Assembly (NCBI RefSeq): GCF_001677475.2
Contig: NZ_CP015229.1
Length of the DNA: 64,000 nt
Direction: 5' to 3' (one strand)
Source: Escherichia coli
GTDB taxonomy: Bacteria > Pseudomonadota > Gammaproteobacteria > Enterobacterales > Enterobacteriaceae
In this document: piece by piece, positions 1-63,042 of the stretch
Position numbering within the stretch: position 1 is the first letter of the stretch
Layout of the letters: each line of letters opens with the position of its first letter
Made by a program: the position numbers and the translations under genes
Notes under the pieces: model-generated
Told to the model about the DNA's origin: nothing
The model's database searches: none
Seen by the model: only the letters and a program-made list of their open reading frames with translations

Positions 1-2506
1 TTTCCCATGCGTGAGCACCGGTGGCATAAGGCTTCACCACACCGTCAATACAGGTAGCCAGCCACAGGGAAACAGATTCCTCAGCCAGACGTGTCGACAG
101 CTTTTCCGGAAGGTAATCGTTGATATTGGCGGCATAGCCAGGCTTGAAGTTCAGGACAAACTTTTTAGCCATTGCACGATCGCAGTAATATTTGCCCACT
201 TGCTCCTGCTCGCTGCGGGCAAATCCTTCCGGCATTACCACGTCCTCACCGTAGACTGATTCAATAAGAAGGCGGGCTGCGTGTGGCATTTGAATAGCGC
301 CTTGCTCACGCAGTACACGCTGCGTCAGCCAGATTCGTCCATGATCGGGATAGACATATGCACTGTTACGCATGGCACTGCCGAACCATTCGTCACCAGG
401 AGCGTCGTCCCAGACGGGGGCCAGAATCAGCAATTCAGGAGGGGAACGCTCGTCTTTTCCGTCACGCTTTAACTGACCATTAATATCGCGGATATGCCGC
501 TGTAATCGCCCCGCCCGTTGGATCAGCAAATCAACAGAGGCCAGGTCGGAGATCATTTCGTCCAGGTCAATATCCACACTTTGTTCAATTACTTGCGTAC
601 AAACAATGACTTGCGATAATCTCTGTAAACTACAACTTTTACCAAAGCGTGCCAACGTTTCCGTTTCAATTCGCTGGCGATCGCTAAAAGCAAAGCGGCT
701 ATGAAAAAGAGAAAGGCTGGAAGCAGGAATGACGCCGCGGGCAAGTAACTGACGATAAACTTTAATAGCATCATCGACAGAATTCCGGATCCAGGCGATG
801 CATTTCCCCTGACTTACCGCCGATTCGATACGCGCAATACACTCTTGTTCGCTATGAAGCCAACCCACGCTCACGCTACGCTCAACGTCTTTGCGCGTCG
901 CTACCCGGTGTGAATGCACATCGGATTTCGTAACGTGCGTCAGCCAGGGGTAATCATCCTTTTCCAGGAACGGAGCTTCTTGCTGGCCCTCTGTACCACG
1001 CGCAAAGGCAGCAACGAGTTTGTCGCGCTGCTGTTGAGATAACGTGGCAGAAAGCAAAATGACGCTGTTTCCGCCACGCGCCTGCAGCTCGATCAGCCCT
1101 TCAAGAATGCATGACATGTAAGCGTCACAGGCATGGATCTCATCAGCCAGCAGGATTTTGTTACTCAGTCCCAGAAGCCGCAGATTATTATGTTTGAACG
1201 GCATCACAGCCATCATCGCCTGATCCAGCGTGCCGACGCCAATTTCAGCCAGCAACGCCTTCTTGTTACTGTCAGCAAACCAGGCCGCACATCCCTGGCT
1301 GAAAGCTTGTTCATCCGGTTCTTCTGACCCGACTAAATCACCGGACCAGAGTGATTCATTAAAGCGGTCCATTAATGTGCGGGCACTGTGTGCCAGCACC
1401 AGGCTGGGGCGGGATTGTGGCGAATAGAAAGCAAGCCAGGTTTTGACCAGCCGATCGTACATGGCATTGGCCGTTGCCATTGTTGGCAGGCCAAAAAACA
1501 AACCCTGCGCTTTCCCCGCAGCCATCAACCTGTGCGCCAGGATAAGCGCCGCTTCTGTTTTACCTGCGCCGGTTACATCCTCCAGAATAAATAACTGTGG
1601 TCCCGGCTGGCTGATATCCAGATCCAGCACCTTTTGCTGTAGCGGTGTCGGATTCTCAATAAAAGGAAACAGCGTATTAATTCCGGTGAAAGGCGCGGTT
1701 TCTGCTTTTGGAGGAAAGACGGTTAAGGCGTTTTGAGCCTGAACTAAAGTTTTCTGCCAGTAATCTTCAATATCCATTGTCTGTGCGACGCGTGGAAAAA
1801 ATCGCGTTGACGATCCCGTCCAGTCTGCAAGTACGACGGTTGCAGAGATATACCAGGAAAGTTGTTTTATAAGTTCAACGCCCTCGTCATCATCCCAGAA
1901 TGTGGGGATCTCTATGAGCGGAAACAGTGCCTTGATTGCAAGGAGAAAATCTCGTGCGGCAGCTTTGTCTTCAGGCAGAAAGTTGTCCAGTTCATCCATA
2001 CGGTCAGGAGGCCGACCATGATGCCCGGTAGTTATGGGCATCCACATATCTATTACCCGTTTGAGCTTGCGCGGAGAGAGTGAAGATGCAGGAAGCAATT
2101 CTTCGCATTCACTTAAATAATGGTGCCACAACCAGTAACCCAGCGTTGAATGAGAGATTTTTTCGTAATTTTTTCTAGAGCTTTCCGGAACCTTGAGTTG
2201 CGGGTGCAGGTAAAGTTGCTGAAAAGAGCGGGCAAATTTTCCAGTATCGTGCCAGCACAATAGCCAGGCGAAAAATTGTGCTGCCTGCTCCGTATCAGCG
2301 AAACCTAGTTGACGAAAATAGTCAGCCAGCCCGAAGCAATTGCTTTTAACCATTAAATAGCCCATCGCGGCTACATCCAGCGAATGCCAGCAAAGAAGGT
2401 GATAGTCGTCGCCCCCGTCTTTCTCGCCGCGTCGGGTTTTTCCCCAGAAATCAAAAAAAGTCACAATATTTTTATCCTTCAGTAAACTTAAAGGATATTT
2501 ACGCAT
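1..2506 (-). CDS. cas3: Cas3 (HD nuclease + SF2 helicase), CRISPR-associated; C-terminus lies outside the window
   Basis: Minus-strand frame is open from the ATG at 2504-2506 to the window edge (about 835 codons, no stop seen; absent from the ORF track because its stop is off-window). Translation begins MRKYPLSLLKDKNIVTFFDFWGKT and contains HD-domain motifs (LLCWHSLDVAAMG, WHDTGKF), Walker A (EDVTGAGKTEAALILA) and a DExH box (LLADEIHACD). Start codon uncertain (in-frame GTG at 2462-2464 is an alternative). Confidence 0.8.
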   Translation of the reverse strand, partial: MRKYPLSLLKDKNIVTFFDFWGKTRRGEKDGGDDYHLLCWHSLDVAAMGYLMVKSNCFGLADYFRQLGFADTEQAAQFFAWLLCWHDTGKFARSFQQLYLHPQLKVPESSRKNYEKISHSTLGYWLWHHYLSECEELLPASSLSPRKLKRVIDMWMPITTGHHGRPPDRMDELDNFLPEDKAAARDFLLAIKALFPLIEIPTFWDDDEGVELIKQLSWYISATVVLADWTGSSTRFFPRVAQTMDIEDYWQKTLVQAQNALTVFPPKAETAPFTGINTLFPFIENPTPLQQKVLDLDISQPGPQLFILEDVTGAGKTEAALILAHRLMAAGKAQGLFFGLPTMATANAMYDRLVKTWLAFYSPQSRPSLVLAHSARTLMDRFNESLWSGDLVGSEEPDEQAFSQGCAAWFADSNKKALLAEIGVGTLDQAMMAVMPFKHNNLRLLGLSNKILLADEIHACDAYMSCILEGLIELQARGGNSVILLSATLSQQQRDKLVAAFARGTEGQQEAPFLEKDDYPWLTHVTKSDVHSHRVATRKDVERSVSVGWLHSEQECIARIESAVSQGKCIAWIRNSVDDAIKVYRQLLARGVIPASSLSLFHSRFAFSDRQRIETETLARFGKSCSLQRLSQVIVCTQVIEQSVDIDLDEMISDLASVDLLIQRAGRLQRHIRDINGQLKRDGKDERSPPELLILAPVWDDAPGDEWFGSAMRNSAYVYPDHGRIWLTQRVLREQGAIQMPHAARLLIESVYGEDVVMPEGFARSEQEQVGKYYCDRAMAKKFVLNFKPGYAANINDYLPEKLSTRLAEESVSLWLATCIDGVVKPYATGAHAWE

Positions 2507-2640
2507 ATATTAAAAATTATCTGTGATATATATCGTTCAATAAAATATTTACATTATGAATAATCAAATAATTTTCATCCGTAATATATATGAATAATAA
2601 ACATAGGCATAATATTCACATAAACAATATAAATTAAAAA
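2507..2640 (-). promoter_or_regulatory. AT-rich tract immediately upstream of cas3; probable cas3 promoter region
   Basis: About 130 bp of roughly 80% A+T directly 5' of the cas3 start; position fits a promoter. H-NS-type silencing of E. coli cas promoters is established knowledge; no -35/-10 assigned. Confidence 0.35.
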
Positions 2641-3117
2641 AGGGTGCAGGAGACCAAACCATCACAATTCAGTACGCGGGGTTTTATCCCCGCGTGGTGG
2701 CTACTTCTTCGATTCGTAAGCGAAAACTGCCTTAAACTCCATACCACGTTCTCTGATACTCAACTCACACAACGAGTCGCCTACCATCAGCGTGAATCAT
2801 CGTACTGTACAACACAGTACGATGATTGCCACAAGGGCATATTTTGTCAGCATGTCTTGCCTCCCTGCAAAGAAGAGACTAACATTCGAATTGTTTGGGT
2901 TCGAACGTAAGCCTCAGGTTGATAGAAATATCGCCTGGGGCTTTTGTCCATCTGGAACCTCGCGAATGCTTAACGCCAGACAGCCTCAAGCACCCGACGC
3001 CATTCTATACCTGATAATTCTTCCAGCGGCGTTCACGTTTAAAATCAGGAATGCTGCTCGCAAAATAAAAACGCCCCCATCATTTCTGACAGAGGCGTTT
3101 AATTTATCCGGCAATAT

Positions 3118-10344: not shown

Positions 10345-10460
10345 TGTAGGCTGCACGCCACATCCGACATTCAGCGCCTGATACGACGCTTGACGCTTGA
10401 CGCGTCTTATCAGGCTTGCAAGTCCCCAGCCCAGAACCGTAGGCAGGATCATCCGGCAGC
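10345..10460. repeat. BIME / REP cluster between convergent ygcP and ygcQ
   Basis: REP-type palindromes, including GCCTGATACGACGCTTGACGCTTGACGCGTCTTATCAGGC (10376-10415) and flanking GC-rich REP-like arms. Confidence 0.65.
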
Positions 10461-17440: not shown

Positions 17441-18919
17441 ATGTCGAAAAAATACATCATAGGGATTGATGGCGGAAGTCAGAGCACAAAAGTGGTGATG
17501 TATGATCTGGAAGGTAATGTGGTTTGCGAAGGCAAAGGCTTATTGCAGCCGATGCACACGCCAGATGCCGATACCGCAGAACATCCTGACGACGATTTAT
17601 GGGCATCATTATGTTTTGCCGGTCACGATTTGATGAGTCAGTTTGCCGGGAATAAAGAAGATATTGTCGGTATTGGTCTGGGATCCATCCGTTGCTGCCG
17701 TGCGTTATTGAAAGCCGATGGCACGCCAGCTGCGCCGTTGATTAGCTGGCAGGATGCACGCGTTACACGCCCTTACGAACATACGAATCCTGACGTGGCA
17801 TATGTCACCTCTTTTTCAGGTTATCTGACGCATCGCTTAACCGGCGAGTTTAAAGACAATATCGCCAACTATTTTGGTCAGTGGCCGGTGGATTATAAGA
17901 CCTGGGCATGGAGCGAAGATGCCGCGGTAATGGAAAAGTTTAATATCCCCCGCCAGATGCTTTTTGACGTGCAAATGCCGGGCACCGTTCTTGGGCATAT
18001 CACACCTCAAGCCGCGCTGGCGACGCATTTCCCGGCAGGACTGCCGGTTGTTTGTACCACCAGTGATAAACCGGTAGAAGCTCTGGGAGCTGGGTTACTG
18101 GATGATGAAACGGCGGTGATTTCTCTTGGCACCTACATCGCGCTGATGATGAACGGTAAAGCACTGCCGAAAGATCCAGTAGCGTACTGGCCGATTATGT
18201 CTTCTATTCCGCAAACATTGCTGTATGAAGGTTACGGTATCCGCAAAGGCATGTGGACAGTAAGCTGGCTGCGCGACATGTTAGGCGAGTCGTTAATTCA
18301 GGATGCCAAAGCACAGGATCTTTCACCGGAAGATTTGCTCAACAAAAAAGCTTCTTATGTGCCGCCTGGCTGTAATGGTCTGATGACGGTGCTGGACTGG
18401 CTGACCAATCCGTGGGAACCGTACAAACGCGGGATTATGATCGGCTTTGATTCCAGCATGGATTACGCATGGATATATCGTTCGATACTGGAAAGCGTGG
18501 CGCTGACGCTGAAGAACAATTACGACAATATGTGTAATGAAATGAATCACTTTGCAAAGCATGTGATCATTACTGGCGGCGGTTCGAACAGCGATCTGTT
18601 TATGCAGATTTTTGCCGACGTGTTCAACCTTCCGGCACGCCGTAACGCCATTAATGGTTGTGCAAGCCTGGGGGCAGCGATTAATACGGCGGTAGGTCTG
18701 GGGCTATACCCGGATTACGCAACGGCTGTCGACAAAATGGTTCGCGTGAAAGATATCTTTATGCCTGTTGAGAGCAACGCCAAACGCTACGACGCGATGA
18801 ATAAAGGCATTTTCAAAGACCTAACCAAACACACTGATGTGATCCTGAAAAAATCGTATGAAGTGATGCATGGTGAGCTGGGAAATGCGGATTCTATCCA
18901 GAGCTGGTCGAATGCGTGA
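17441..18919 (+). CDS. ygcE: FGGY-family carbohydrate kinase
   Basis: 492-aa ORF MSKKYIIGIDGGSQSTKVVMYD... (FGGY N-terminal motif). Confidence 0.9.
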   Translation: MSKKYIIGIDGGSQSTKVVMYDLEGNVVCEGKGLLQPMHTPDADTAEHPDDDLWASLCFAGHDLMSQFAGNKEDIVGIGLGSIRCCRALLKADGTPAAPLISWQDARVTRPYEHTNPDVAYVTSFSGYLTHRLTGEFKDNIANYFGQWPVDYKTWAWSEDAAVMEKFNIPRQMLFDVQMPGTVLGHITPQAALATHFPAGLPVVCTTSDKPVEALGAGLLDDETAVISLGTYIALMMNGKALPKDPVAYWPIMSSIPQTLLYEGYGIRKGMWTVSWLRDMLGESLIQDAKAQDLSPEDLLNKKASYVPPGCNGLMTVLDWLTNPWEPYKRGIMIGFDSSMDYAWIYRSILESVALTLKNNYDNMCNEMNHFAKHVIITGGGSNSDLFMQIFADVFNLPARRNAINGCASLGAAINTAVGLGLYPDYATAVDKMVRVKDIFMPVESNAKRYDAMNKGIFKDLTKHTDVILKKSYEVMHGELGNADSIQSWSNA

Positions 18920-18965
18920 ATGAGGTAGGCCGGGCGGAAAACTGCCCGGCCTGAACATACCTAAA

Positions 18966-19786
18966 TGGTTATCCCCGCTAACGCGGGGAACTCACTGAAA
19001 ACACCGGCGAGATCGTATTTTTTGCCGGTTTATCCCCGCTCGCGCGGGGAACTCTACCGGAAGGCAGGCACATTAGATCAGGTGATCGGTTTATCCCCGC
19101 TCGCGCGGGGAACTCCAGTGAGCGGAAGAAGAATGACTAACAGAGAGCGGTTTATCCCCGCTCGCGCGGGGAACTCCCCAGCCACAACAGCCACGCGTCG
19201 CGCTGTTCCGGTTTATCCCCGCTCGCGCGGGGAACTCGGAAACCGCCCCGGCGGTGGTTGGCTGTTTGCCGGTTTATCCCCGCTCGCGCGGGGAACTCTT
19301 TGCGCCGGAAATAGGAATCGTATTCGGTCTCGGTTTATCCCCGCTCGCGCGGGGAACTCTTATGCATCTCATCAAGCTTGTCGCCAAACGACGGTTTATC
19401 CCCGCTCGCGCGGGGAACTCTTAAATCGCGCTGGAAAAAAATGGTTTTTGCGCGGTTTATCCCCGCTCGCGCGGGGAACTCACACCCCGTTGCAATAAAT
19501 GGTCTGGGGGCTGCGGTTTATCCCCGCTCGCGCGGGGAACTCCAAACGCTTCTTCGTAGGCAGCACTGTAGGCCCGGTTTATCCCCGCTCGCGCGGGGAA
19601 CTCGGTGAAAAGATGAGTGCATACTGGTTTGTTTTCGGTTTATCCCCGCTCGCGCGGGGAACTCTCTTTTCCCGCTAATCACGACCAGATCCTGTCCGGT
19701 TTATCCCCGCTCGCGCGGGGAACTCGTAAAACCTCCTCGCGCCCACAATCGCAGCGGCGGTTTATCCCCGCTCGCGCGGGGAACTC
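18966..19786 (-). CRISPR. CRISPR array, 14 repeats (29 nt) and 13 spacers (32 nt each); orphan array between ygcE and queE
   Basis: Thirteen identical repeats CGGTTTATCCCCGCTCGCGCGGGGAACTC (plus-strand reading) at 19026, 19087, 19148, 19209, 19270, 19331, 19392, 19453, 19514, 19575, 19636, 19697 and 19758, plus one degenerate terminal repeat TGGTTATCCCCGCTAACGCGGGGAACTC at 18966-18993. AT-rich leader lies at the high-coordinate end, so the array is read on the minus strand. Confidence 0.97.
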
Positions 19787-19990
19787 TCTAAACATAACCT
19801 ATTATTAATTAATGATTTTTTAAGCCAGTCACAATCTACCAACTTTACAGGATCACACAAACAACACATCTATTATGTTAAAGAGCACTTAATCCATTGA
19901 TTGAAAAGGTAAATATTTAAAATAACTCTATACAAACTAAAATCTACCAAACTCCGACGTAATAATTTTCACCCCAGAGAAAAATTAACG
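19787..19990 (-). promoter_or_regulatory. CRISPR leader (AT-rich) containing the presumed array promoter
   Basis: About 200 bp of AT-rich sequence abutting the first perfect repeat, opposite the degenerate repeat; position and composition typical of a type I-E leader. Confidence 0.55.
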
Positions 19991-20125
19991 CCACAGAATT
20001 TGTAGAGAATGACAATGATTAGTCCGGAATGGGCAAAATGGATGAGTTTTCAGAGGCGACAAAAAATATAAATGAGTGGAAGTCTTTACAGGTTCCACCC
20101 ATTTATAACGTATATAAATGTGTAA

Positions 20126-20797
20126 TCAGGCAATATTTAAATATTTATGTGTTTGCATCGACAAACGCCAGTTACGCGCAATGCAAGTTTCAATGCACAA
20201 ACGTGTGGCATCATCCTTTTGGCTAATCGGCTGCAGTGCAATGACTCGCGGTTTATCATCGGTCAGCGTCGCAAGCAATTCATCCAGTGCTTCGATATCA
20301 CGTACGCGTCCAACTGGGTGTTTGATTTCGTTAGCTCGCTCCAGGGCTTGCGACAATACTTCATAACCACCACGCATATTTAGCTTTGGCGACACGGTGA
20401 CCCAGGTATTCGGCGTACAACGCACTTCATGAGTACCGCTGGTTTCTATCTGGCAACTGAAACCGTTCTTTTCGAGCAGGTCAGTTAGTGGCATCAAGTC
20501 ATGAATACAAGGTTCACCACCCGTAATCACCACGTGACGCGCGGTGTATCCCTGACGACCGATGACTGCGAGTAAGTCTTCACTGCTTGCTGCTCCCCAC
20601 TTATCACTCTCTTTCGTTTTACCTAGAATGCTGAAAAGGGAAACTTCCCGATCCTCAAGCTTTTCCCATGTGTGTTTGGTGTCGCACCAGGCACAGCCGA
20701 CCGGGCATCCCTGTAAACGAATAAAAATAGCGGGGACGCCGGTAAAGTAACCCTCACCTTGCAGGGTCTGGAACATCTCGTTAATCGGGTACTGCAT
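20126..20797 (-). CDS. queE: 7-carboxy-7-deazaguanine synthase (radical SAM)
   Basis: 223-aa ORF MQYPINEMFQTLQGEGYFTGVPAIFIRLQGCPVGCAWCDTK (CxxxCxxC-type radical-SAM cluster motif). Confidence 0.93.
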   Translation of the reverse strand: MQYPINEMFQTLQGEGYFTGVPAIFIRLQGCPVGCAWCDTKHTWEKLEDREVSLFSILGKTKESDKWGAASSEDLLAVIGRQGYTARHVVITGGEPCIHDLMPLTDLLEKNGFSCQIETSGTHEVRCTPNTWVTVSPKLNMRGGYEVLSQALERANEIKHPVGRVRDIEALDELLATLTDDKPRVIALQPISQKDDATRLCIETCIARNWRLSMQTHKYLNIA

Positions 20798-39473: not shown

Positions 39474-39518
39474 AAAGCAACCTCAATAAGAAAAACTGCC
39501 GCGAAGGATAGCAGGAAT

Positions 39519-39884
39519 AAAAAAAGGGAGCACTGTATTCACAGTGCTCCCGGTTCGTTTCGCAGCATTCCAGCTACTTTTGTTGCTCCCTGCTCATCCT
39601 TGACAACTTTTCCTCTGGCCTTGCGGCCAATCGTTCGTCCTGAACTATTGCTTCCTGCTCACACCACCCCGATGTGATACTTCATCCTGAAGTGTCCCTG
39701 GCCTTCCTGACCCACCGAATCATCCTGACCGGTTCTCATTCTCCATCCTGGAGGTGTCCTTTAACGCGTCCTGCGTCATCCTCTTCGCTTCGTCCAGAAG
39801 CCTTTCCCTGAAACACCATCCTGGTGTGTCCTTCAGAAGTGTCATCATCCTGATGTTCACTTCGTTGTCTGACTCCCTGTCGAC
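39519..39884 (-). ncRNA. csrB: CsrB regulatory sRNA (CsrA-sequestering)
   Basis: Minus-strand transcript begins GUCGACAGGGAGUCAGACAACGAAG (complement of 39860-39884), carries many GGA-containing CAGGAUG / AGGGA motifs (plus-strand CATCCTG / TCCCTG), and ends in a hairpin GGGAGCACTG...CAGTGCTCCC (39526-39551) plus U-run. Confidence 0.9.
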
Positions 39885-58053: not shown

Positions 58054-58259
58054 ACTTCCTGAGCCGGAACGAAAAGTTTTATCGGAATGCGTGTTCTGGT
58101 GAACTTTTGGCTTACGGTTGTGATGTTGTGTTGTTGTGTTTGCAATTGGTCTGCGATTCAGACCATGGTAGCAAAGCTACCTTTTTTCACTTCCTGTACA
58201 TTTACCCTGTCTGTCCATAGTGATTAATGTAGCACCGCCTAATTGCGGTGCTTTTTTTT
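58054..58259 (+). ncRNA. gcvB: GcvB regulatory sRNA
   Basis: Begins ACTTCCTGAGCCGGAACGAAAAGTTTTATCGG 7 nt after a TATAGT -10 (58042-58047), contains the G/U-rich region GTTGTGATGTTGTGTTGTTGTGTTTGC, ends with hairpin CACCGC-CTAATT-GCGGTG plus T8; divergent from gcvA as in E. coli. Confidence 0.92.
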
Positions 58260-61223: not shown

Positions 61224-61403
61224 GAGGTTATCCCTCACCCTAAACGCATAAATGCCTGATGCGCTACGCTTATCAGGCCTACATAACTCCTGCAATATTT
61301 TGGATTTGCATGAGTTGTAGGCCGGATAAGGCGTTCACGCCGCATCCGGCATGAACCACGCGCACTTAGTCAATAATCAGGATGAGAGGTTATCCCTCAC
61401 CCT
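61224..61403. repeat. BIME (two REP palindromes) flanked by perfect 18-bp direct repeats
   Basis: Direct repeats GAGGTTATCCCTCACCCT at 61224-61241 and 61386-61403; between them REP GCCTGATGCGCTACGCTTATCAGGCCTACA (61254-61283) and REP TAGGCCGGATAAGGCGTTCACGCCGCATCCGGC (61318-61350). Confidence 0.75.
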
Positions 61404-62744: not shown

Positions 62745-62821
<77 letters not shown>

Positions 62822-62854
62822 ATTAAAATTTGATGAAGTAAAGCAGTACGGTGA

Positions 62855-62931
<77 letters not shown>

Positions 62932-62965
62932 ATCAAAATTTGATGAAGTAAAAGCAGTACGGTGA

Positions 62966-63042
<77 letters not shown>

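What the first reader, a model, noticed from the sequence alone, without database searches (positions are those of the whole stretch)
18966..19786. Orphan CRISPR array with a variant type I-E-like repeat and 13 strain-specific spacers
Seen in sequence: 13 perfect 29-nt repeats plus one degenerate distal repeat, with uniform 32-nt spacers, between ygcE and queE and about 16 kb from cas3; no cas gene is adjacent. The repeat read in transcription direction is GAGTTCCCCGCGCGAGCGGGGATAAACCG, which differs by one loop base from the K-12 repeat as I recall it (GCCA loop versus GCGA here; from memory, needs checking). Spacers, plus strand, distal to leader-proximal: ACTGAAAACACCGGCGAGATCGTATTTTTTGC; TACCGGAAGGCAGGCACATTAGATCAGGTGAT; CAGTGAGCGGAAGAAGAATGACTAACAGAGAG; CCCAGCCACAACAGCCACGCGTCGCGCTGTTC; GGAAACCGCCCCGGCGGTGGTTGGCTGTTTGC; TTTGCGCCGGAAATAGGAATCGTATTCGGTCT; TTATGCATCTCATCAAGCTTGTCGCCAAACGA; TTAAATCGCGCTGGAAAAAAATGGTTTTTGCG; ACACCCCGTTGCAATAAATGGTCTGGGGGCTG; CAAACGCTTCTTCGTAGGCAGCACTGTAGGCC; GGTGAAAAGATGAGTGCATACTGGTTTGTTTT; TCTCTTTTCCCGCTAATCACGACCAGATCCTG; GTAAAACCTCCTCGCGCCCACAATCGCAGCGG. 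Spacer targets and any self-targeting are unknown.
Basis: partly seen in the sequence, partly recalled or inferred. Interest (0 to 1): 0.5.

Follow-up and report, generated by a model that had tools for sequence, protein, structure and literature searches.

The report
Standard E. coli second CRISPR array
This is the well-known second CRISPR array of the E. coli type I-E immune system, in its usual place between ygcE and queE. Its spacers mostly remember temperate phages, so it is real but ordinary.

Summary
The array is real. It has 13 perfect 29-nt repeats, one degenerate terminal repeat and 13 spacers of 32 nt, at 18965-19786. An AT-rich leader lies on its right, so it is transcribed on the minus strand.

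It is not an orphan in the biological sense. It is the canonical E. coli CRISPR-II locus (CRISPR2.2-3), found between ygcE and queE in 5409 of 5426 complete E. coli genomes. That locus is one half of the split type I-E system. An open cas3 of the E1 variant lies 16.5 kb away, at 2-2509 (-).

The one-base loop change in the repeat (GCCA to GCGA) against K-12 is confirmed. It is a catalogued allele: 40 complete E. coli genomes carry it, and it is the usual I-E repeat core in Cronobacter sakazakii.

No complete genome shares the array. Spacer 5, however, is 31/32 identical to a spacer in the CRISPR-I arrays of roughly 100 genomes.

Six spacers (1, 3, 4, 6, 7, 9) match temperate phages or prophages. 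Five of the six have the expected 5'-AAG PAM on the expected side. Six spacers, including the four newest, have no target.

No self-target exists within the window.

Verdict: already known, low interest.

The parts
18965..19786 (-). CRISPR-II (CRISPR2.2-3) array: 14 repeats and 13 spacers, transcribed right to left
   Evidence: Searches give the anatomy. Searches give the orientation from the PAM side. Searches show the leader on the right and the degenerate repeat on the left.
19026..19786 (-). 13 identical 29-nt repeats. The RNA sense is GAGUUCCCCGCGCGAGCGGGGAUAAACCG, with a 7-bp stem and a GCGA loop.
   Evidence: One search found 13 exact copies against 0 expected. One search gives the same hairpin and the same energy (-15.1 kcal/mol) as the K-12 repeat.
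18965..18993 (-). Degenerate leader-distal terminal repeat (5 mismatches)
   Evidence: A nearly identical terminal repeat sits next to ygcE in K-12, Br_167, MEI003, 1190 and SC418.
19787..20125 (-). AT-rich leader (31% GC). The repeat-proximal part is conserved with other E. coli CRISPR2.3 leaders.
   Evidence: alignment A1; GC content. In one search, leader plus queE are 99.2% identical to strain 1190.
2..2509 (-). cas3, cas-E1 variant. 836 sense codons are open (835 from the ATG at 2506) and the gene is cut by the window edge.
   Evidence: One search shows the open frame. One search shows the Cas3 HD and helicase core domains above their cut-offs. One search gives 96.6% amino-acid identity to the Br_167 Cas3 and 28% to the K-12 Cas3.
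18994..19025 (-). Spacer 1. Matches 30/32 in a prophage tail-gene region of E. coli N1420, with PAM AAG.
19116..19147 (-). Spacer 3. Matches 31/32 in lambdoid and related temperate phages (phiV10, HK629, O157 typing phages), in three large plasmids and in many prophages. PAM is AAG.
19177..19208 (-). Spacer 4. Matches 29-30/32 at the cox gene of P2-like phages and prophages. The diverged copies carry GTG or AAA in place of the PAM.
19238..19269 (-). Spacer 5. 31/32 identical to a spacer in the CRISPR-I (iap-cas2) arrays of roughly 100 complete E. coli genomes. No protospacer was found.
19299..19330 (-). Spacer 6. Matches 27/32 in Salmonella prophage ZC-S1_prp, next to its integrase. The 18 PAM-proximal bases are perfect and the PAM is AAG.
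19360..19391 (-). Spacer 7. Matches 32/32 in E. coli prophages (an eae-like domain gene, for example in strain EC2) and 30/32 in P22-like Salmonella phages ST160 and SE1. PAM is AAG.
19482..19513 (-). Spacer 9. Matches 31/32 in a prophage holin gene of E. coli 40EC, with PAM AAG.
17441..18919 (+). ygcE, the left flank of the locus
20126..20797 (-). queE (ygcF), the right flank of the locus

Best explanation
This is the cas-distal array (CRISPR-II, the fused CRISPR2.2-3 form) of the Escherichia coli type I-E CRISPR-Cas system, in a strain that carries the cas-E1 gene variant.

**Shown here**
- The repeat, spacer and leader anatomy is that of the E. coli CRISPR-II locus.
- The spacers were taken from temperate phages and prophages at sites preceded by 5'-AAG. 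That is the signature of I-E Cas1-Cas2 adaptation, and it fixes the transcription direction as the minus strand.
- The repeat allele is uniform across the array, as it is in other strains that carry this allele with entirely different spacers.

**Inferred from established I-E biology**
- New units are added next to the leader by copying the first repeat. A loop mutation there would therefore spread through the array.
- The leader drives a pre-crRNA.
- Cas6e cuts at the 3' base of each hairpin. This gives 61-nt crRNAs with the 5' handle AUAAACCG and a 21-nt 3' hairpin handle.
- Cascade uses these crRNAs to find AAG-flanked protospacers and recruits Cas3, which degrades the invading temperate-phage DNA.
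- In E. coli the system is normally repressed by H-NS, so present-day activity is conditional.

**Not visible**
- The rest of the cas operon lies beyond the left edge of the window.
For: - **Array anatomy.** 13 exact repeats against 0 expected by chance, a 61-nt period and 32-nt spacers.
- **Locus.** 5409 of 5426 complete E. coli genomes match this query region, and every row listed for the match is annotated CRISPR plus ygcE. K-12 and Br_167 show the same gene order, with the full I-E operon and CRISPR-I to the left of cas3. [quoted passage not shown]
- **Leader.** It aligns with the CRISPR2.3 leaders of other strains and shares a conserved block with CRISPR-I leaders.
- **Repeat fold.** The hairpin and its energy are identical to those of the K-12 repeat.
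- **PAM.** AAG lies immediately 5' of the protospacer, in crRNA sense, for spacers 1, 3, 6, 7 and 9. My estimate is that five AAG out of six targets has a chance probability of about 6e-9, at 1/64 per site.
- **Targets.** They are lambdoid, P22-like and P2-like phages and prophage genes. This agrees with the published finding that E. coli spacers mainly target prophages (PMC10910852).
- **cas3.** It is open over 836 sense codons, with the HD and helicase domains present, and is 96.6% identical to the Cas3 of a strain with a complete I-E1 operon.
- **Repeat allele.** The same allele fills the whole CRISPR-II array in MEI003 (17 copies), 1190 (4) and SC418 (at least 5), each with a different set of spacers.
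Against: - Only cas3 is visible, and it is cut at codon 836 of about 899. The cascade genes, cas1, cas2 and CRISPR-I lie outside the window, so the completeness of the system is unknown.
- No promoter-like site on the minus strand of the leader passed the simple sigma-70 scan.
- The four newest spacers (10-13), and also spacers 2 and 8, have no target in GenBank phages, PLSDB plasmids, 5426 E. coli genomes, IMG/VR or (spacers 12 and 13) JGI metagenomes.
- Expression and interference cannot be tested from sequence alone.
- From general knowledge, E. coli I-E is H-NS-silenced under laboratory conditions.
Confidence: 0.85

Rival explanations
1. Relic array. It was built by I-E adaptation in the past, but the strain now has a defective or permanently silent cas operon. 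The array would then be a passive fossil that provides no immunity.
For: - The cas operon beyond cas3 is not in the window.
- The neighbouring hok gene is a pseudogene, so some decay has occurred in this region.
- Published work describes E. coli arrays as stable and slow-changing, and the system as repressed (PMC10910852).
- No target was found for the newest spacers.
Against: - All 13 repeats are perfect, the leader is conserved, and cas3 has no stop codon over 836 codons.
- The closest relatives with this cas3 variant have a complete I-E1 operon.
- One spacer still matches circulating prophages 32/32 with a correct PAM.
Confidence: 0.13
2. A truly orphan or mobile array, unrelated to the chromosomal I-E system. 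It might belong to another CRISPR type or have arrived on a mobile element.
For: No cas gene is adjacent, and the array is separated from cas3 by 16.5 kb of metabolic genes.
Against: - The locus, the flanks and the leader are the conserved chromosomal CRISPR-II locus, and 5409 of 5426 genomes match this region.
- There are no mobile-element genes at the flanks.
- The repeat differs by one base from the K-12 I-E repeat.
- The PAM is the I-E AAG.
Confidence: 0.01
3. Not a CRISPR at all. The tandem repeats would belong to the 177-aa ORF listed at 18965-19498 (+), or be another kind of intergenic repeat.
For: the ORF listing reports an open frame across part of the array.
Against: - The ORF is simply the 61-nt period read through, and it has no independent support.
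- The unique 32-nt inserts match phage DNA next to AAG.
- The region is annotated as CRISPR in RefSeq genomes.
Confidence: 0.01

Closest known systems
E. coli K-12 MG1655 CRISPR-II array (ygcE-queE, CRISPR2.2/2.3), NC_000913.3
   Same: It has the same flanking genes, the same orientation and leader side, and the same degenerate repeat next to ygcE. It also has 29-nt repeats, 32-nt spacers and the same hairpin.
   Different: - The K-12 repeat loop is GCCA, and the repeat ends in ..AACAC at this locus. Here the loop is GCGA and the end is ..AACTC.
- K-12 has a 0.5-kb gap between the terminal repeat and a 6-spacer array. Here the array is fused and has 13 spacers.
- No spacer is shared.
- K-12 carries the cas-E2 variant, and its Cas3 is only 28% identical.
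CRISPR-II arrays of E. coli MEI003, 1190 and SC418 (RefSeq complete genomes)
   Same: They have the identical 29-nt repeat allele throughout the array, the same locus and the same fused arrangement. The leader plus queE of strain 1190 are 99.2% identical to the window.
   Different: The spacer sets are completely different, and the arrays differ in length (4 spacers in 1190, about 18 in MEI003).
Type I-E repeat of Cronobacter sakazakii (GTGTTCCCCGCGCGAGCGGGGATAAACCG)
   Same: It has the same GCGA loop and an identical 27-nt core, and it lies next to complete I-E cas clusters (PMC7822459).
   Different: Position 2 of the repeat differs (T there, A here). It is a different genus and a different locus.
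E. coli CRISPR-I (CRISPR2.1, iap-cas2) arrays, for example in STEC434
   Same: They belong to the same repeat family. One of their spacers is 31/32 identical to spacer 5 and lies in the same orientation.
   Different: They are adjacent to cas2 and have a different leader (L1). Their repeat ends in ..AACAC and has a GCCA or GUCA loop.

Membership tests
Type I-E CRISPR array (E. coli 'type 2' repeat family) | A 29-nt repeat with a GC-rich 7-bp stem, a 4-nt loop and the 3' tail AUAAACCG | tested here: met
   13 exact copies. The fold is identical to that of the K-12 repeat. There is one base difference from the K-12 repeat, read directly.
Type I-E CRISPR array (E. coli 'type 2' repeat family) | 32-nt spacers, giving a 61-nt unit | tested here: met
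   All 13 spacers are 32 nt and the spacing is 61 throughout.
Type I-E CRISPR array (E. coli 'type 2' repeat family) | Protospacers flanked by a 5'-AAG (AWG) PAM on the side fixed by the leader | tested here: met
   AAG is present for spacers 1, 3, 6, 7 and 9. It is absent only in the diverged homologues of the spacer 4 target.
Type I-E CRISPR array (E. coli 'type 2' repeat family) | An AT-rich leader at one end and a degenerate repeat at the other | tested here: met
   The leader is 31% GC against 51% for the window. It aligns with known leaders. The degenerate repeat is at 18965.
Type I-E CRISPR array (E. coli 'type 2' repeat family) | A cognate I-E cas operon in the same genome | tested here: inconclusive
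   The 5' 836 codons of cas3 (E1 variant) are present and open. The cascade genes, cas1 and cas2 lie outside the window. They are present in the closest relative.
Type I-E CRISPR array (E. coli 'type 2' repeat family) | Transcription and Cas6e processing into 61-nt crRNAs | not testable with these tools
   This needs RNA data or a cleavage assay. The simple promoter scan found nothing on the minus strand of the leader.
E. coli CRISPR-II locus (CRISPR2.2-3) | Located between ygcE and ygcF (queE) | tested here: met
   The definition is in PMC3903273.
E. coli CRISPR-II locus (CRISPR2.2-3) | A conserved 'leader 2.3' next to the array | tested here: met
   Alignment A1. The leader plus queE are 99.2% identical to strain 1190.
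Orphan CRISPR array (no cognate cas genes) | No cas genes of the matching type in the genome or neighbourhood | tested here: not met
   A type I-E cas3 lies 16.5 kb away in the same window. The locus is a described component of the I-E system.

The most novel reading that the evidence does not exclude
The GCGA-loop allele marks a minor lineage of E. coli CRISPR-II arrays. In that lineage, the array far from the cas genes has been completely rebuilt several times in nature. The four strains examined carry the allele in every recognised full repeat of the array, and no spacer is shared among them. This would point to real natural adaptation at CRISPR-II, against the prevailing view that E. coli I-E arrays are nearly static. 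The presence of spacer 5 in the CRISPR-I arrays of other strains could then reflect recurrent capture of a favoured protospacer.
Probability: 0.12. Interest if true: 0.35.

Novelty: already known. Interest (0 to 1): 0.08.

Why it matters
It matters little beyond strain typing. The locus, the repeat family, this particular repeat allele and the preference for prophage targets are all documented. The spacer list could serve as a strain or lineage fingerprint, and it records past contact with lambdoid, P22-like and P2-like temperate phages. The only mildly useful points are that the GCGA-loop allele clearly supports adaptation, and that one spacer recurs across the two arrays of different strains.

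Tried and rejected
- **Rfam.** Neither the gathering threshold nor a relaxed E-value gave a CRISPR repeat family hit over the array. The only relaxed hit was a chance match to anti-hemB at E = 0.047. No repeat classification is available from Rfam.
- **Promoter scan.** The sigma-70 scan of the leader found no minus-strand site at its thresholds. I did not map the promoter.
- **IHF consensus.** WATCAANNNNTTR has a perfect match at -116 to -104 from the first repeat. From memory, the K-12 CRISPR-I site lies about -9 to -35, so I make no claim from this match.
- **GTDB species representatives.** An exact scan for the repeat found single copies only, in a Pluralibacter MAG and in Klebsiella oxytoca. 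The source genome is not among the representatives, so genome-wide self-targeting and the cas operon could not be checked.
- **IMG/VR scans.** I scanned spacers 13, 12, 11, 10, 8 and 2 with the seed-side 23 nt, leaving every sixth base free. There were no hits except one 23/32 match for spacer 11 in an AT-rich unrelated contig. I regard that as chance despite an AAG beside it.
- **JGI metagenome scans.** Spacers 13 and 12 gave nothing.
- **Unmatched spacers against E. coli genomes.** Spacers 2, 6, 8 and 10-13 gave no match at E <= 5 in 5426 genomes.
- **Self-targeting.** Within the window, no match was longer than 16 nt.
- **A non-E. coli Escherichia species.** I considered this because the ygc region is only 96-98% identical to the best genomes. 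I rejected it because the eno-relA region is 98.9% identical to an ordinary E. coli.

Full report
**1. The observation**

The sequence at 18965-19786 is a textbook CRISPR array.

- The 29-mer CGGTTTATCCCCGCTCGCGCGGGGAACTC occurs 13 times without a mismatch, from 19026 to 19786, at an exact 61-nt step. None of 100 shuffles of the window contained a single copy.
- A fourteenth, degenerate copy (ATGGTTATCCCCGCTAACGCGGGGAACTC, 5 mismatches) is in register at 18965-18993.
- The 13 inserts are all 32 nt. Spacer 12 was transcribed two bases out of register. The true sequence is TCTTTTCCCGCTAATCACGACCAGATCCTGTC, at 19665-19696.
- A 177-aa ORF listed across the array is only the repeat period read through.

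**2. Where it sits**

Gene order was taken from annotated E. coli genomes that align with the window and from the ORF list. The order is:

- cas3 (2-2509, minus strand, cut by the window edge)
- a hok/sok remnant
- cysH, cysI and cysJ
- queD
- ygcN to ygcW
- yqcE
- ygcE (17441-18919)
- the array
- queE (20126-20797)
- ygcG, eno, pyrG, mazG and onwards

The organism is E. coli in the broad sense. The eno-relA stretch is 98.9% identical to an ordinary E. coli strain, while the ygc region is 96-98% identical.

5409 of 5426 complete E. coli genomes match the query that spans this region, and every row listed for the match is annotated CRISPR plus ygcE. Almendros et al. [quoted passage not shown] CRISPR-II lies between ygcE and ygcF and holds either one array, CRISPR2.2-3, or two arrays 0.5 kb apart.

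The window has the fused single-array form. The degenerate repeat next to ygcE is followed directly by the array. In K-12 and Br_167 a gap of about 0.5 kb follows that repeat.

**3. Orientation and leader**

The 339 bp between the last repeat and queE is 31% GC, against 51% for the window. It aligns along its whole length with the CRISPR-II leaders of other strains. It also shares an invariant block, AGTTGGTAGATTGT, and the repeat-proximal TATG.TTAG motif with CRISPR-I leaders.

The leader is on the right and the degenerate repeat is on the left, so transcription runs on the minus strand. In RNA sense the repeat is GAGUUCCCCGCGCGAGCGGGGAUAAACCG. This direction is confirmed independently by the PAM side (section 5).

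**4. The repeat "variant"**

I read the K-12 repeats from NC_000913.3. They are CGGTTTATCCCCGCTGGCGCGGGGAACTC at CRISPR-I and the same with ..AACAC at CRISPR-II. The only difference inside the hairpin is one loop base, GCCA in K-12 and GCGA here. The predicted hairpin and its energy (-15.1 kcal/mol) do not change.

The allele is not new.

- The exact 29-mer is present in 40 of 5426 complete E. coli genomes, always on the chromosome and mostly under a CRISPR annotation.
- In the three genomes I opened (MEI003, 1190, SC418) it fills the CRISPR-II array. The exceptions are the terminal degenerate repeat and, in MEI003 and SC418, one or two units that my pattern did not recognise.
- Other loop alleles also exist in E. 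coli. GUCA occurs in the CRISPR-I array of Br_167.
- The 27-nt core with the GCGA loop is the most frequent I-E repeat reported for Cronobacter sakazakii, next to full I-E cas clusters (PMC7822459).

An array that is uniform for a loop mutation is what the known adaptation mechanism predicts, because each new unit duplicates the leader-proximal repeat. That step is inferred, not shown here. Arrays carrying this allele have entirely different spacers in four strains, which shows that the allele is compatible with spacer acquisition.

**5. Spacer targets and PAM**

I searched the concatenated spacers against GenBank phages, PLSDB plasmids and complete E. coli genomes. I then read the flanks of the best matches.

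| Spacer | Best match | Target | Bases at the PAM position |
|---|---|---|---|
| 1 | 30/32 | Prophage tail-gene region, E. coli N1420 | AAG |
| 3 | 31/32 | phiV10, HK629, O157 typing phages, three large plasmids, many prophages (ea22/eae-like early region) | AAG |
| 4 | 29-30/32 | cox gene of P2-like phages and prophages | GTG or AAA, in diverged copies |
| 6 | 27/32, with 18 PAM-proximal bases perfect | Salmonella prophage ZC-S1_prp, next to its integrase | AAG |
| 7 | 32/32, and 30/32 | E. coli prophages (eae-like domain gene); P22-like phages ST160 and SE1 | AAG |
| 9 | 31/32 | Prophage holin gene, E. coli 40EC | AAG |

Five of the six target families therefore have 5'-AAG directly upstream of the protospacer in crRNA sense. 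On the window plus strand this appears as CTT after the protospacer. At 1/64 per site, the chance probability is of the order of 1e-8 by my estimate. AAG is the type I-E adaptation PAM, and its G corresponds to the last base of the repeat. The targets are all temperate phages or prophages, which agrees with the recent survey of E. coli spacers (PMC10910852).

Spacer 5 has no protospacer. It is 31/32 identical, in the same orientation, to a spacer in the CRISPR-I array (iap-cas2) of many strains. It accounted for 36 of the 60 sampled rows out of 184 matching records, which suggests roughly 100 genomes. I confirmed the position in STEC434.

Spacers 2, 8 and 10-13 have no convincing match anywhere I could search. 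That includes IMG/VR and, for spacers 12 and 13, JGI metagenomes. No spacer matches the rest of the window over more than 16 nt. Self-targeting elsewhere in the genome cannot be assessed.

**6. The cas genes**

The minus-strand frame from 2509 to the window edge is open for 836 sense codons.

- It carries the Cas3 HD domain and the helicase core domain, both above the curated cut-offs.
- It is 96.6% identical to the 899-aa Cas3 of strain Br_167. That strain has a complete operon: cas3, casA, casB, cas7, cas5, cas6e, cas1, cas2, then CRISPR-I and iap.
- It is only 28% identical to the K-12 Cas3. Its GC content is 50%, against 45% for K-12 cas3.
- This fits the E1 variant rather than the K-12 E2 variant of Almendros et al.. 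The same paper notes that CRISPR-II leaders are alike whichever cas variant is present.

The remaining cas genes would lie to the left of the window and were not seen.

**7. Conclusion**

The finding is a correct reading of a well-known feature. The label "orphan" applies only in the narrow sense that no cas gene is adjacent. Biologically this is the second array of the split E. coli I-E system.

The most likely mechanism is the standard one. The leader drives transcription on the minus strand. Cas6e cleaves at each hairpin. Cascade is guided to AAG-flanked protospacers in temperate phages, and Cas3 degrades the target. Activity is conditional on relief of H-NS repression, which I take from general knowledge and did not test.

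The main uncertainty is whether the strain's cas operon is complete and ever expressed. The relic reading, at about 0.13, cannot be excluded from this window.

The spacer set is unique among 5426 complete genomes apart from spacer 5. That is normal strain-level variation for this locus.

Novelty: already known. Interest: low.

Noticed in passing
window 2701-2853 (-), with sok RNA at 2838-2995 (-): The hok-family toxin ORF between cas3 and cysH has an in-frame stop at codon 19 (..CCTVR* against ..CCTVLGF.. in strain Br_167). The sok antisense RNA still scores 113 bits in Rfam. This looks like a decayed hok/sok module.
   Followed up: partly
window 19238-19269 (spacer 5); L008 3001-3032: The same spacer, with one mismatch and in the same orientation, sits in the other array (CRISPR-I, next to cas2) of roughly 100 complete E. 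coli genomes. The explanation could be independent capture of a favoured protospacer or exchange between arrays. No protospacer was found.
   Followed up: partly
window 18965-19498 (+): the ORF listing reports a 177-aa ORF that is only the CRISPR period read in frame. Gene callers could pick it up as a false gene.
   Followed up: yes
window 2-2509 (-): The cas3 here is the E1 variant. It is 28% identical to the K-12 Cas3 at the protein level and 96.6% identical to Br_167. Its GC content is 50%, against 45% for K-12 cas3.
   Followed up: yes
window 39516-39875 (-), 58054-58259 (+), 61275-61317 (-), 62745-63042 (+): Known RNA genes lie elsewhere in the window: CsrB, GcvB, the ES036 sRNA and three tandem tRNA-Met(CAT) genes with a 110-nt period.
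   Followed up: no
L011 14861-15973 and 23794-25142, against window 2510-2700 and about 10393-10397: The closest complete genome (Br_167) has an IS421 element between cas3 and hok, and an IS3-family element between ygcP and ygcQ. The window has neither.
   Followed up: no
L013 3603-3625 (IMG/VR UViG_3300021964_010872): Spacer 11 matches 23/32 here, preceded by AAG, at the 3' end of a 364-aa ORF in an AT-rich viral contig unrelated to enterobacterial phages. I judge this a chance match.
   Followed up: partly
window 19891-19903 (-116 to -104 from the first repeat, minus strand): A perfect match to the IHF consensus WATCAANNNNTTR lies in the distal leader. It is further from the repeat than the IHF site I recall for the K-12 CRISPR-I leader. 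Its significance is unknown.
   Followed up: no
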